Source: an archaeon GW2011_AR20
Lineage (GTDB): Archaea; Nanobdellota; Nanobdellia; SCGC-AAA011-G17; GW2011-AR20
DNA length: 64,000 bases
Assembly: GCA_000830315.1 (NCBI GenBank)
Contig: CP010426.1
Coordinates: 60,670 to 124,669 of the forward strand
Direction of reading: 5' to 3'
Within the stretch, counting starts at the first letter, position 1. Each line of letters opens with the position of its first letter. Both the position numbers and the translations under genes were made by a program. Positions 40,111 through 41,312 of the stretch are shown here, piece by piece. The notes beneath the pieces were generated by a model that ran no database searches, had not been told where the DNA came from, and saw only the letters and a program-made list of their open reading frames with translations.

Positions 40111-40184
40111 TTAATATAAACATTCACTTCCCCTATACTAATTTAAAGGATTGATCTGTGCTTAAAAACAACCTTATAGTTTTT

Positions 40185-40595
40185 TTAATCTCTTATTCTA
40201 TCCAATTTTCCATTGAGAACTATAGGAGCCATGCCTCTCATTTCTTCTTCGTAATTTAGTCCTTTCGGTATTGGATTTAAGAGATATATGCTTTTATTAT
40301 TGACAAATGCGAAGCCCATTTCTAAAAAAGTGTTTCCCCCCACATAATTTTCTATTCCTTTCTTTGTTTTATTCCATACAAGAATTGCATCTGAATTGAT
40401 TATTCTTTTGTAATGTTTAATGATAGCATTATGTTTTTGTATGTTTCTTACTCCCTGTTCTATTGACTTATTGCTGTAATCTGTTCCCTCTATTTGTTCT
40501 GGAAGAGAGACAGTGTGGGAAAATTTTTCTAATTTAGATTTAGCATCAACCATTTCCTGAAAAAACAATAAACTTCCGCAAATTGTAATTTTCAT
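40185..40595 (-). CDS. Nucleoside 2-deoxyribosyltransferase-like protein
   Basis: 136 aa; MKITICGS N-terminus and GGNTFLEMGFAF resembling the NDT active-site motif. Confidence 0.4.
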   Translation of the reverse strand: MKITICGSLLFFQEMVDAKSKLEKFSHTVSLPEQIEGTDYSNKSIEQGVRNIQKHNAIIKHYKRIINSDAILVWNKTKKGIENYVGGNTFLEMGFAFVNNKSIYLLNPIPKGLNYEEEMRGMAPIVLNGKLDRIRD

Positions 40596-40643
40596 AATAT
40601 TTGAGATTGAAGATTAATATATAAAGTTTCTTGATTTTTGGGT

Positions 40644-40659
40644 GAAGGCTGATTTTTAT
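40644..40659 (+). repeat. 16-nt direct repeat GAAGGCTGATTTTTAT (copy 1)
   Basis: Identical 16-mer at 41297-41312; both lie just 3-prime of minus-strand stop codons. Confidence 0.5.
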
Positions 40660-41000
40660 TATTCAAAACCGCTTTCACCCAAAGTCGTAATTACCCTTTT
40701 AATATCTTCAATTACTTTTTGCTGATCTTTCTTTTCAGATATCCTAACAAACCTTATGAGAAGATTAATAAGCTCGTCTTCTGTTCCAAATTTTAGCATA
40801 TGGCCATCGGTAATGAAATAAAATCTGAACTTTTCATATTTAATTTCCTTAATTAGAATTCCGCCTATATTTCCTAGAGCTTTGCCTTTATTAGGATAAG
40901 ACTCCAACGACTTCATCAGTGAAAAAATTTCCAAAGATTTATGCTTAAACTTCTTAAATATTTCATCTTTCAGAGATTCTGAAATAACTACTTTCGCCAT
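40659..41000 (-). CDS. Small protein, candidate toxin of a toxin-antitoxin pair
   Basis: 113 aa; overlaps upstream 71-aa gene by 13 nt (typical TA arrangement). Confidence 0.3.
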   Translation of the reverse strand: MAKVVISESLKDEIFKKFKHKSLEIFSLMKSLESYPNKGKALGNIGGILIKEIKYEKFRFYFITDGHMLKFGTEDELINLLIRFVRISEKKDQQKVIEDIKRVITTLGESGFE

Positions 41001-41203
41001 TTTTCTTTTGCTTGAGTTATAGCTTCATCTATAGTTATAGTATCCGAAGTATCATATAAGTACGCAAAAAGAATTTTTTTTCTAGCTATCTCATACATTC
41101 TTCTTATTATGTCTTCGTATGAATCTCCAGCTCTGCCAATATTTCTCAGTTTTGTCTTCATATCATTAGATATGGATATTGTAGTTGCCATATAATATAT
41201 CAT
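40988..41203 (-). CDS. Small protein, candidate antitoxin (DNA-binding)
   Basis: 71 aa; precedes and overlaps the 113-aa gene. Confidence 0.3.
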   Translation of the reverse strand: MIYYMATTISISNDMKTKLRNIGRAGDSYEDIIRRMYEIARKKILFAYLYDTSDTITIDEAITQAKEKWRK

Positions 41204-41296
41204 AACTATGGGGTTTATATACTTTATGGTTTATGAAGTTTTTAATCGTTACAAATTTAACACCAAAAGTTTTGAACTTATTTTCTCAGTCTTGTC

Positions 41297-41312
41297 GAAG
41301 GCTGATTTTTAT
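41297..41312 (+). repeat. 16-nt direct repeat GAAGGCTGATTTTTAT (copy 2), preceded by tRNA-Thr 3-prime-end-like TCTTGTCGAAGGCT
   Basis: TCTTGTCGAAGGCT (41290-41303) matches the tRNA-Thr 3-prime end TCCTGCCGAAGGCT at 12 of 14 positions. Confidence 0.4.

What the first reader, a model, noticed from the sequence alone, without database searches (positions are those of the whole stretch)
40111..41312. tRNA-Thr-adjacent accessory islet bounded by a tRNA 3-prime-end-like repeat
Immediately downstream of tRNA-Thr(CGT) lie a nucleoside 2-deoxyribosyltransferase-like gene and an overlapping toxin-antitoxin-like pair. The 16-mer GAAGGCTGATTTTTAT occurs twice (40644-40659; 41297-41312), the second preceded by TCTTGTCGAAGGCT, which matches the tRNA-Thr 3-prime end at 12 of 14 positions. 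This pattern resembles att-site remnants of a degraded integrative element; no integrase is present.
Basis: partly seen in the sequence, partly recalled or inferred. Interest (0 to 1): 0.45.

Follow-up and report, generated by a model that had tools for sequence, protein, structure and literature searches.

The report
Stacked mobile-element remnants beside tRNA-Thr
The short repeats after this archaeal tRNA-Thr gene are real scars of mobile DNA that inserted several times at the end of the tRNA gene, an ordinary mechanism that is unusually well documented here because relatives keep the empty site, intermediate stages and an intact integrase-carrying element.

Summary
The window comes from a DPANN (Woesearchaeota/Nanoarchaeota) archaeon.

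Between tRNA-Thr(CGT) (ends 40110/40111) and the promoter of a conserved 53-aa gene (41905) lie three modules:
- **M1 (40112-40643):** an NDT-fold gene.
- **M2 (40644-41303):** a RelE-fold toxin and an RHH antitoxin.
- **M3 (41304-41904):** the deleted remnant of a 493-aa gene.

Each module boundary carries the last 7 nt of the tRNA, GAAGGCT. In some relative, the sequence after each boundary directly follows an intact tRNA-Thr or an attR:
- L119 is completely empty (tRNA, then the 53-aa gene).
- L090 has only M3.
- L098 and L108 have the toxin-antitoxin (TA) pair directly on the tRNA.
- L002 has other cargo plus a 13/14 tRNA-end repeat.
- L116 has a 12.4-kb element with a tyrosine integrase, bounded by an 11-nt tRNA-end repeat.

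The arm of the L116 attR is 33/43 identical to the sequence ending in copy 2. The window has no homolog of that integrase.

This is serial integrase-type insertion at a tRNA 3' end, leaving decayed remnants. It is a new member of a known kind, of modest interest.

The parts
39886..40038 (+). Conserved 50-aa zinc-ribbon gene. It serves as the left anchor and ends where tRNA-Thr begins in every allele.
   Evidence: Homologs of 61-90% identity sit directly upstream of tRNA-Thr in L002, L090, L096/L116, L098, L108, L111 and L119.
40038..40111 (+). tRNA-Thr(CGT), the integration target. Its last 7 nt, GAAGGCT (40104-40110), form the core shared by all junctions.
   Evidence: ARAGORN and Rfam at 72.6 bits. 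GAAGGCT is the only block invariant in the 7-junction alignment.
40112..40643 (.). Module M1, the one nearest the tRNA and, under the accretion model, the newest. About 45 nt from 40112 are homologous to the sequence that follows the attR in L116. The module also holds the NDT-fold gene and its promoter region.
   Evidence: M1 is absent from L090, L098, L108 and L119. The trailer similarity to the L116 post-attR sequence scores 23, with 0 of 500 shuffles reaching it.
40185..40595 (-). 136-aa gene of the nucleoside 2-deoxyribosyltransferase (NDT) / DNPH1 superfamily. This is the cargo of M1.
   Evidence: The family has 1045 representatives. 22 of 40 members hit PF05014. The AlphaFold model has pLDDT 96.1. 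Foldseek top hits are 4jen, 6evs, 8rps and 2a0k. E92 is invariant in the alignment.
40644..40666 (+). Copy 1: the core GAAGGCT plus GATTTTTATTATTCAA. It is the former junction between the tRNA end and the TA module, moved away from the tRNA by M1.
   Evidence: 22 nt are identical to the junction on the intact tRNA-Thr of L108. Homology to L098 (92.2% over 617 nt) starts exactly at 40644, which in L098 is the last 7 nt of the tRNA.
40659..41000 (-). 113-aa putative toxin with a RelE/ParE-like fold. This is cargo of M2.
   Evidence: More than 537 homologs of about 112 aa, the named ones from DPANN-type archaea, none with a Pfam domain. The AlphaFold model has pLDDT 88. Best Foldseek matches are archaeal RelE 1wmi_A (TMt 0.74), RelE1, HigB and ParE, at E 0.025.
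40988..41203 (-). 71-aa VapB/RHH-type putative antitoxin. It overlaps the toxin gene by 13 nt.
   Evidence: PF02697 E 6e-5 (24.2 bits, below the 27.9-bit cut-off) and PF24434. NCBIfam PRK13696 E 1.5e-7. The same gene pair occurs in L098, L100-L103 and L111.
41261..41303 (+). attR-type junction of M2. It consists of an element arm (41261-41296) plus the tRNA-like 14-mer TCTTGTCGAAGGCT (41290-41303).
   Evidence: 33/43 identical to the attR of the integrase element in L116 (14210-14252). Also similar to two arms in L111. Local alignment scores are 16-20, with 0 of 1000 shuffles reaching them. It occurs once in the window.
41297..41319 (+). Copy 2: the core GAAGGCT plus GATTTTTATGATTTAA, which is the start of module M3.
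   Evidence: 29 nt (41296-41324) are identical to the sequence at the end of the intact tRNA-Thr in L090-L095.
41312..41877 (-). Decayed remnant of a 493-aa gene, the cargo of module M3 (41304-41904). It includes ORF 41329-41784.
   Evidence: tblastn of the L090 493-aa protein aligns residues 1-163 to 41877-41392 (83%) and residues 463-493 to 41404-41312. About 905 nt (L090 5325-6229) are missing.
41905..42107 (+). Right anchor: the promoter region and conserved 53-aa gene (41946-42107). This is the sequence that follows tRNA-Thr directly in the empty allele.
   Evidence: In L119 the tRNA-Thr is followed at once by the homologous promoter and the 53-aa gene. In L002 this sequence follows a 13/14 tRNA-end repeat.

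Best explanation
**Claim.** The 1.8 kb between tRNA-Thr(CGT) and the 53-aa gene is a stack of remnants of integrative elements. They entered one after another by site-specific recombination at the 3' end of the tRNA gene.

**Mechanism.** A tyrosine integrase encoded by an element (an example survives in relative L116) recombines the element's attP with the tRNA end. The crossover lies in or next to the last 7 nt, GAAGGCT. The tRNA is rebuilt at the left junction, and a partial tRNA-like copy is left at the right junction.

**Order.** Each new arrival uses the intact tRNA, so older modules are pushed outward. The inferred order is:
1. M3 (the 493-aa gene), shared with L090.
2. M2 (the RelE-fold/RHH toxin-antitoxin pair with its attR arm).
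3. M1 (the NDT-fold gene).

Copy 2 is the attR of M2, joined to the old start of M3. Copy 1 is the old junction between the tRNA and M2, now the right end of M1. The 9 nt the two copies share beyond GAAGGCT come from similar element-side arms of M2 and M3.

**Decay.** Integrase genes and other element parts were later lost from the window, and M3 lost 905 nt.

**Shown versus inferred.**
- Shown: the repeats, the allele series with its empty and intermediate sites, the integrase element with a homologous attR arm, and the higher similarity of the TA module than of the backbone.
- Inferred: that an integrase made each junction, the 7-nt crossover region, the order of events, and the present immobility.
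For: **Allele series at the same tRNA.**
- Left anchor: the zinc-ribbon gene lies directly upstream of tRNA-Thr in every allele.
- Right anchor: the 53-aa gene lies beyond the cargo in L119, L090, L098/L099, L111 and L002. In L108 the contig ends inside the toxin gene. L116 has different genes on its right side.
- L119: tRNA directly followed by the 53-aa gene.
- L090-L095: tRNA followed by the 493-aa gene. The flanks are 87-92% nt identical to the window, and window 40111-41289 is absent.
- L098/L099 and L108: tRNA directly followed by the TA pair.
- L111: a remnant of an L116-type left end, then the TA pair.
- L002: a kinase, a methyltransferase and a 152-aa gene, then GCCTGCCGAAGGCT (13/14), then homology to window 41905.
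- L116: integrase (PF00589, 65 bits) and a 12.4-kb element bounded by an exact 11-nt repeat, TGCCGAAGGCT.

**Junction counterparts.** Each window junction has a statistically supported counterpart directly after an intact tRNA-Thr or an attR.

**attR arm.** The copy-2 arm is homologous to the L116 attR arm.

**Shared core.** GAAGGCT is the only block common to all aligned junctions.

**Lateral transfer.** The TA module is 92.2% identical between the window and L098, while the surrounding backbone is 74-80% identical.

**Chance.** A tRNA-end match with at most 2 mismatches is expected 0.0012 times in 1.2 kb.

**Literature.** Integration into archaeal tRNA genes is known to leave one complete and one partial tRNA copy at the two ends of the element (PMC9897764).
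Against: - The window has no detectable homolog of the L116 integrase, so no enzyme can be tied to these particular junctions.
- The repeats are very short. Only 7 nt are shared by all three window junctions.
- The left flank of copy 1 is not significantly similar to any attR arm (p 0.05-0.57).
- M3 has no tRNA-like repeat at its right end.
- Modules of 532 and 660 nt are far smaller than typical integrative elements. Either large internal deletions or mobilisation in trans must be assumed.
- The M1 trailer also follows the attR in L116. It could therefore be an old chromosomal trailer rather than an element arm, which would change the order of events.
- All contigs of the window's own population are identical across the locus, so no ongoing excision is seen.
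Confidence: 0.8

Rival explanations
1. The full stack is ancestral, and the relatives with less cargo (L090, L098, L119) lost modules by recombination or excision between the direct GAAGGCT-containing repeats. On this view the window did not gain them one by one.
For: Deletion between the tRNA end and copy 2 would give exactly the L090 junction. Deletion between the tRNA end and copy 1 would give the L108 and L098 junction. The M1 trailer is shared with the more distant L116, where it follows the attR.
Against: Relatives carry different, non-homologous cargo (L002, L116, L111), which needs insertions anyway. The TA module is much more similar between the window and L098 than the backbone is, which points to transfer. 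M3 alone is shared by the two closest lineages, as expected if it is the oldest layer. This rival also uses the same att cores, so it changes the direction of events but not the nature of the repeats.
Confidence: 0.1
2. Cargo between two conserved anchors (tRNA-Thr and the 53-aa gene) is swapped by homologous recombination with DNA from related lineages. The short repeats would be incidental microhomologies rather than products of an integrase.
For: Both anchors are conserved across alleles. No integrase homolog was found in the window. The TA module is joined to two different arm types, with the homology breaking at 41259.
Against: Anchor-based replacement does not predict partial copies of the tRNA 3' end at internal and distal module boundaries in the window, L002, L098 and L116. 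It also does not predict an attR arm shared with an integrase-bearing element, or nested junctions that each match a tRNA-adjacent sequence elsewhere.
Confidence: 0.07
3. The 16-mer is a chance repeat or a terminator-like signal (a hairpin plus a T-run) reused after genes, unrelated to mobile DNA.
For: Exact repeats of 16 nt or more are common in this AT-rich window: 11 observed against 4-5 expected. Copy 2 fits a hairpin-plus-T5 pattern on the + strand (z -2.8). In L090 the same 16-mer is the tRNA end plus a T5 trailer, which may well terminate tRNA transcription.
Against: There are only two exact copies in 64 kb, and the six near matches have 2-3 mismatches. Terminator-like sites in the region number 1, against 0.9 expected. 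The neighbouring genes are on the other strand, where the motif reads as an A-run. The comparative data place both copies exactly at insertion boundaries.
Confidence: 0.02

Closest known systems
Archaeal integrative elements and genomic islands in tRNA genes, such as PYG1 in Pyrococcus yayanosii and the 9-23-kb elements in Thermococcaceae tRNA genes (PMC9897764)
   Same: The element inserts at a tRNA gene. It leaves a complete tRNA at one end and a partial tRNA copy (attR) at the other. A tyrosine integrase lies next to the tRNA in the intact example (L116). Cargo consists of accessory genes.
   Different: The repeats here are much shorter: 7-14 nt in the window and 11 nt exact in L116, against 44 bp for PYG1. 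The window holds only integrase-less modules of 0.5-0.7 kb, stacked three deep. The host is a DPANN archaeon.
Fsx1 (fusexin)-carrying integrated mobile elements of archaea (Moi et al. 2022, PMC9259645)
   Same: The intact element in L116 carries an Fsx1-family gene (PF28161), a HerA/DUF87 ATPase and a XerC/D-type tyrosine recombinase. These are the signature genes listed for those elements.
   Different: The window itself has none of these genes. Only its copy-2 arm is homologous to the attR arm of that element. A term search of that paper found no mention of tRNA, integrase or Nanoarchaeota in its main text. Membership of the L116 element in that family was not tested beyond shared Pfam domains.
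Tandem accretion of genomic islands at one tRNA or tmRNA gene in bacteria (from my own knowledge, not checked here)
   Same: Successive integrations at the same attB push older islands outward. Arrays are separated by decaying att copies, and integrases are lost from the older units.
   Different: The units here are single genes or gene pairs, and the host is an archaeon. No unit in the window retains an integrase.
Integron gene cassettes
   Same: Small promoter-poor or single-gene units are inserted one after another at a fixed site, with the newest nearest to that site.
   Different: There is no IntI-type integrase next to the site and no attC-like imperfect palindromes at the module ends. 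The site is a tRNA 3' end, and the boundaries are direct repeats of it.

Membership tests
tRNA-targeting integrative element or genomic islet (tyrosine-integrase type) | It lies directly at the 3' end of a tRNA gene, and the tRNA stays intact. | tested here: met
   Cargo starts at 40112, directly after tRNA-Thr, which scores 72.6 bits in Rfam.
tRNA-targeting integrative element or genomic islet (tyrosine-integrase type) | A direct repeat of the tRNA 3' segment marks the distal boundary (attR). | tested here: met
   A 12/14 repeat at 41290-41303 and the 7-nt core at 40644-40650. Chance expectation is 0.0012 per 1.2 kb. No repeat was found at the outermost boundary, 41904.
tRNA-targeting integrative element or genomic islet (tyrosine-integrase type) | Presence/absence polymorphism, with an unoccupied site in relatives whose junction equals the tRNA end plus the distal flank. 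| tested here: met
   L090-L095 lack 40111-41289. L119 lacks everything up to the 53-aa gene. L098 and L108 lack M1.
tRNA-targeting integrative element or genomic islet (tyrosine-integrase type) | An integrase gene lies within the element. | tested here: not met
   tblastn with the L116 integrase finds no homolog in the window (E > 2), and the islet ORFs give no Phage_integrase hit. The feature is met at the same site in L116 (PF00589, 65 bits). The window locus is therefore filed as remnants, not as a functional element.
tRNA-targeting integrative element or genomic islet (tyrosine-integrase type) | Excision to a circular form, or integration activity. | not testable with these tools
   This needs read-level data or experiments. 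All assembled contigs of the population are identical.
Type II toxin-antitoxin pair (RelE/ParE-fold toxin with RHH antitoxin) | Two small co-oriented genes that overlap, with the antitoxin first. | tested here: met
   The 71-aa gene (40988-41203) precedes the 113-aa gene (40659-41000) and overlaps it by 13 nt on the - strand. The pair is conserved in L098, L100-L103 and L111.
Type II toxin-antitoxin pair (RelE/ParE-fold toxin with RHH antitoxin) | The antitoxin belongs to a known antitoxin family. | tested here: inconclusive
   PF02697 VAPB_antitox scores 24.2 bits against a cut-off of 27.9, E 6e-5. NCBIfam PRK13696 scores E 1.5e-7, far below its cut-off.
Type II toxin-antitoxin pair (RelE/ParE-fold toxin with RHH antitoxin) | The toxin has the RelE/ParE fold and catalytic residues. 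| tested here: inconclusive
   The best Foldseek matches are RelE, HigB and ParE (1wmi_A, TMt 0.74, rmsd 2.8), but E is 0.025. There is no Pfam or PDB sequence hit. Catalytic residues were not examined.
Nucleoside 2-deoxyribosyltransferase superfamily (PF05014 and relatives) | Sequence membership in PF05014. | tested here: inconclusive
   The window protein has no hit. 22 of 40 aligned homologs hit PF05014, best E 7.6e-8.
Nucleoside 2-deoxyribosyltransferase superfamily (PF05014 and relatives) | The flavodoxin-like NDT fold with a conserved acidic residue after the central strand. | tested here: met
   The AlphaFold model has pLDDT 96. Foldseek gives probability 1.00 to BcmB, NDT, DNPH1 and MilB. 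E92 is invariant in 40 sequences. Substrate and activity are not testable here.
   Two exact copies only. One terminator-like site in 39800-42200 against 0.9 expected. The adjacent genes are on the opposite strand.

The most novel reading that the evidence does not exclude
The tRNA-Thr 3' end of these DPANN archaea may act as a gene-capture platform. Integrase-less mini-modules of one or two genes (532 and 660 nt here) would not be decayed leftovers but mobile cassettes. They would be inserted and excised in trans by the integrase of larger elements, such as the fusexin-carrying 12.4-kb element of L116, through a 7-nt core (GAAGGCT) plus short conserved arms. That would be functionally parallel to integron cassettes, but built on a tRNA attB.
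Probability: 0.12. Interest if true: 0.6.

Novelty: new member of a known kind. Interest (0 to 1): 0.35.

Why it matters
This locus gives a clean, multi-allele record of how tiny symbiotic archaea with reduced genomes gain and lose accessory genes at a single tRNA gene. The record includes an empty site, single modules, a stack, and an intact integrase element. It defines att-type sequences (the core GAAGGCT and two arm types) that can be used to find mobile elements in Woesearchaeota and Nanoarchaeota metagenomes. It also links such remnants to an element carrying a fusexin-family gene. The mechanism itself is textbook, so the value is documentary rather than conceptual.

Tried and rejected
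**Statistics and repeat scans**
- The exact-repeat statistic alone does not make the 16-mer significant: 11 pairs observed against 4-5 expected.
- The alpha-arm motif occurs only once in the window.
- The left flank of copy 1 could not be shown to be an attR arm.

**tRNA detection**
- ARAGORN and Rfam at gathering threshold missed the intron-bearing tRNA-Thr genes of relatives. Those genes were found by pattern search and by eye.

**Gene comparisons**
- The kinase after the tRNA in L002 is not the ortholog of the window's 168-aa kinase.
- Single-sequence Pfam, NCBIfam, PADLOC and PDB searches of the 136-aa and 113-aa proteins gave nothing. A profile search of the PDB also gave nothing useful.
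- No islet protein has a homolog in the L116 element or the other fetched loci, apart from the toxin, the antitoxin and the 493-aa gene.

**Collection scans**
- Viral-contig scans for the tRNA end and for the L116 integrase found nothing.
- The metagenome scan for the tRNA end plus GATTTTTAT gave three relevant loci, two of them already held, and four unrelated chance hits.
- In L112 the zinc-ribbon gene is followed by a tRNA-Thr with a different acceptor stem, so it was not informative for the core.

**Literature**
- A literature search found no description of this locus.
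Full report
**1. What is in the window**

The region has about 31% G+C. It encodes tRNA-Thr(CGT) at 40038-40111 on the + strand (ARAGORN; Rfam 40039-40110 at 72.6 bits). Downstream, all on the - strand, lie:
- a 136-aa ORF (40185-40595);
- a 113-aa ORF (40659-41000), overlapped by 13 nt by a 71-aa ORF (40988-41203);
- a 151-aa ORF (41329-41784).

GAAGGCTGATTTTTAT occurs exactly twice, at 40644-40659 and 41297-41312. The repeat extends to 21/23 identity. TCTTGTCGAAGGCT at 41290-41303 matches the tRNA's last 14 nt at 12 positions. All stated coordinates are correct.

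**2. Is it more than chance?**

An exact 16-mer repeat alone is weak evidence. The window has 11 direct exact repeats of 16 nt or more. Markov-shuffled sequences give 4-5, and about 0.2 per window lie within 1 kb of each other.

The tRNA-end match is much stronger. A hit with at most 2 mismatches is expected 1e-6 times per base. That is about 0.0012 in the 1.2 kb downstream on the same strand, and 0.13 in the whole window.

**3. Organism and population**

NrdR next to the locus has its best relatives (87% or less) in Woesearchaeota and Nanoarchaeota genomes assembled from metagenomes.

Proteins identical to those of the window occur on many contigs. Examples are the 479-kb JGI contig Ga0209542_10000018 and GCA_018302365.1. 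All nine fetched copies are 99.86-100% identical over 39000-46000. Inside this population there is no indel polymorphism, so the informative comparisons are with sister lineages.

**4. The allele series**

The 50-aa zinc-ribbon gene that ends where tRNA-Thr begins is a stable left anchor. A 53-aa gene (window 41946-42107) with its promoter (from 41905) is the right anchor wherever the sequence held reaches that far. In L108 the contig ends in the toxin gene, and L116 has other genes on its right. Seven arrangements were found.

| Allele | Arrangement after tRNA-Thr |
|---|---|
| L119 | The homolog of window 41905 and the 53-aa gene follow at once. The site is fully empty. |
| L090-L095 | The tRNA end runs straight into GATTTTTATGATTTAATTTCA and an intact 493-aa gene. 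|
| L098/L099, L108 | The tRNA is followed directly by the toxin-antitoxin (TA) pair. |
| L111 | The tRNA is followed by a sequence homologous to the left end of the L116 element, then the TA pair, then the 53-aa gene. |
| L002 | A P-loop kinase, a TehB-type methyltransferase and a 152-aa gene, then GCCTGCCGAAGGCT (13/14), then homology to window 41905. |
| L116 (full contig of L096) | A tyrosine integrase and a 12.4-kb element (section 6). |
| Window | NDT-fold gene, TA pair and remnant of the 493-aa gene. |

Details for L090-L095:
- The flanks are 87-92% nt identical to the window.
- Window 40111-41289 has no counterpart.
- Window 41290-41395 aligns to L090 5218-5324, so the copy-2 14-mer aligns to the tRNA end itself.

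Detail for L098: the homology to the window (92.2% over 617 nt) begins exactly at 40644, which in L098 is the last 7 nt of the tRNA.

Detail for L108: 22 nt at the tRNA end equal window 40644-40665.

**5. Reading the window from the series**

The 1.8 kb between 40112 and 41904 splits into three modules.

| Module | Coordinates | Content |
|---|---|---|
| M1 | 40112-40643 | NDT-fold gene |
| M2 | 40644-41303 | TA pair, attR arm and tRNA-like core |
| M3 | 41304-41904 | remnant of the 493-aa gene |

In M3, residues 1-163 and 463-493 of the 493-aa protein are still recognisable, and about 905 nt are deleted.

The sequence to the right of each boundary has a statistically supported counterpart that abuts an intact tRNA-Thr or an attR in a relative:

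| Window position | Counterpart |
|---|---|
| 40112 onward | follows the L116 attR |
| 40651 onward | follows the tRNA in L098 and L108 |
| 41304 onward | follows the tRNA in L090 |
| 41905 onward | follows the tRNA in L119 and the attR in L002 |

In the seven-junction alignment, the only invariant block is GAAGGCT, the last 7 nt of the tRNA. In two further junctions not in that alignment it is degenerate (GGAGGCT at the L098 attR, GAAGGTT at the second L111 arm).

**6. Link to an integrase**

In L116 the tRNA-Thr is followed after 67 nt by a 397-aa tyrosine recombinase (PF00589, 65 bits against a cut-off of 27). The element also holds:
- an RHH gene;
- a DUF87/HerA ATPase;
- a 768-aa Fsx1-family protein.

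It ends at 14239-14252 with GCTTGCCGAAGGCT, an 11-nt exact repeat of the tRNA end, giving an element of 12.4 kb.

The 43 nt ending in that repeat are 33/43 identical to window 41261-41303. Two arms in L111 belong to the same type. Local-alignment scores are 16-23, with none of 1000 shuffles as good.

The attR arms of L098 and L002 form a second type. The window itself has no homolog of this integrase.

**7. Mechanism proposed**

Integrase-mediated recombination took place between an element's attP and the tRNA 3' end. Strand exchange lay in or beside GAAGGCT, and the process repeated at least two and probably three times. Because every newcomer uses the rebuilt tRNA, order follows distance from the tRNA:
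1. M3 is oldest, and it is the only module shared with the nearest lineage, L090.
2. M2 came next.
3. M1 is the newest.

Copy 2 is the attR of M2 fused to the old start of M3. Copy 1 is the former junction between the tRNA and M2, now the right end of M1. The nine extra bases the two copies share (GATTTTTAT) are not tRNA sequence. They are the similar first bases of M2 and M3. In L090 and L108 they sit right after the tRNA, where a T5 run would serve as a trailer or terminator.

The TA module is 92.2% identical between the window and L098, against 74-80% for the surrounding backbone. This argues for recent lateral movement of that module.

Published work on Thermococcaceae describes the same signature for archaeal tRNA-integrating elements: one complete and one partial tRNA copy at the two ends (PMC9897764).

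**8. What remains inferred or unexplained**

No enzyme in the window can be tied to the junctions. The open points are:
- The 7-nt crossover is inferred from the shared sequence only.
- The left flank of copy 1 is not recognisably an attR arm. Instead it is an inverted copy of the toxin's last codons, forming a strong hairpin of -21 kcal/mol (z -4.1 on the + strand, -4.9 on the - strand).
- M3 has no tRNA-like repeat at 41904.
- Homology between the window and L098 stops at 41259, just where the arm begins, so arm and cargo can be reshuffled.
- The M1 trailer also follows the L116 attR. It may be an old chromosomal trailer, which would alter the order of events.
- Loss by recombination between the same repeats, rather than gain, could explain some alleles.

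**9. Cargo**

*The 136-aa protein.* It belongs to a large family with 1045 representatives at E of 0.001 or less.
- 22 of 40 aligned members hit PF05014.
- Its AlphaFold model (pLDDT 96.1) matches BcmB, NDT, DNPH1 and MilB.
- E92 is invariant in the alignment.

*The 71-aa protein.* It is VapB/RHH-like, below the Pfam threshold.

*The 113-aa protein.* It has more than 537 homologs, the named ones from DPANN-type archaea, and no Pfam domain. Its best fold matches are to RelE, HigB and ParE, which is suggestive and not proven.

The same TA pair also occurs away from any tRNA, for example next to an RPA gene in L100.

**10. Rivals**

- The terminator or chance reading is contradicted by the allele series, by the strand of the neighbouring genes and by the lack of further copies.
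- Anchor-based homologous replacement does not predict partial tRNA copies at the module boundaries.
- Ancestral presence with differential loss remains possible for part of the history, but it uses the same att cores.

**11. Verdict**

The locus is an integration hotspot at tRNA-Thr that carries a stack of decayed integrative-element remnants. It is a new example of a well-known process, in a little-studied archaeal group.

Noticed in passing
L116 1894-14252 (contig Hain_H43_01um_R1_1588, the same contig as L096): An intact 12.4-kb integrated element in tRNA-Thr of a Nanoarchaeota relative. It carries a tyrosine integrase, an RHH gene, a DUF87/HerA ATPase and a 768-aa Fsx1 (fusexin)-family protein, and it is bounded by the 11-nt exact repeat TGCCGAAGGCT. 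The Fsx1 protein has 48 homologs at E of 1e-20 or less.
   Followed up: partly
tRNA-Thr genes: window 40038-40111; L090 about 5140-5231; L002 about 1903-1995 (-); L116 about 1803-1893; L111 about 2882-2985: The orthologous tRNA-Thr has an intron in the D-loop in L090, L002, L116 and L111 (L111 seems to have a second one). It has none in the window, L098 or L119. ARAGORN and Rfam at gathering threshold missed the intron-bearing copies in L002; the others were found by pattern search. The window's D-arm also differs from that of L090, although the flanks are about 90% identical.
   Followed up: partly
window 44421-44584, 44632-44717, 63175-63238: Further tRNA genes that ARAGORN missed. Rfam finds 44632-44717 (61 bits, 86 nt, probably with an intron) and a borderline one at 63175-63238. 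A long class II-like tRNA with intron(s) seems to lie at about 44421-44584, sharing its T-arm 17-mer with tRNA-Thr. These tRNAs close the variable region on the right.
   Followed up: no
window 41905-44420 and relatives L090, L098, L099, L111: The rest of the region up to the next tRNAs is also plastic. L090 has an extra 110-aa gene. L098 and L111 lack the 266-aa nucleotidyltransferase. L099 also lacks the Fic gene, which L098 has. No att-like repeats were seen at these boundaries. The Fic protein hits PADLOC models PDC-S04 and SoFic, and the nucleotidyltransferase hits PDC-S09 and PDC-M05A.
   Followed up: partly
window 40637-40683: A 19-nt imperfect inverted repeat joins the left flank of copy 1 to the last codons of the toxin gene. 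The hairpin is about -21 kcal/mol on either strand (z -4.1 on the + strand, -4.9 on the - strand). It spans the toxin stop codon, and its origin is unexplained.
   Followed up: partly
window 40659-41000 and L100-L103: The 113-aa putative toxin belongs to a well-conserved family with no Pfam domain: more than 537 proteins of about 112 aa, with mean column identity of 70% in a 39-sequence alignment. The sources that name an organism give Woesearchaeota, Nanoarchaeota or 'archaeon'. It is always paired with a VapB-like gene and also occurs at sites without a tRNA.
   Followed up: partly
window 20402-20453 and 20943-20994: A 52-nt exact direct repeat at the 5' ends of two adjacent ORFs (20394-20843 and 20917-21402). 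They are probably paralogous genes sharing an N-terminal signal or pilin-like segment.
   Followed up: no
L112 236-310: In one relative, the zinc-ribbon gene (80% identical) is followed by a tRNA-Thr(CGT) with a different acceptor stem (GCCTCTG...CAGAGGC) and by wholly different cargo, including a MazE-like gene.
   Followed up: no
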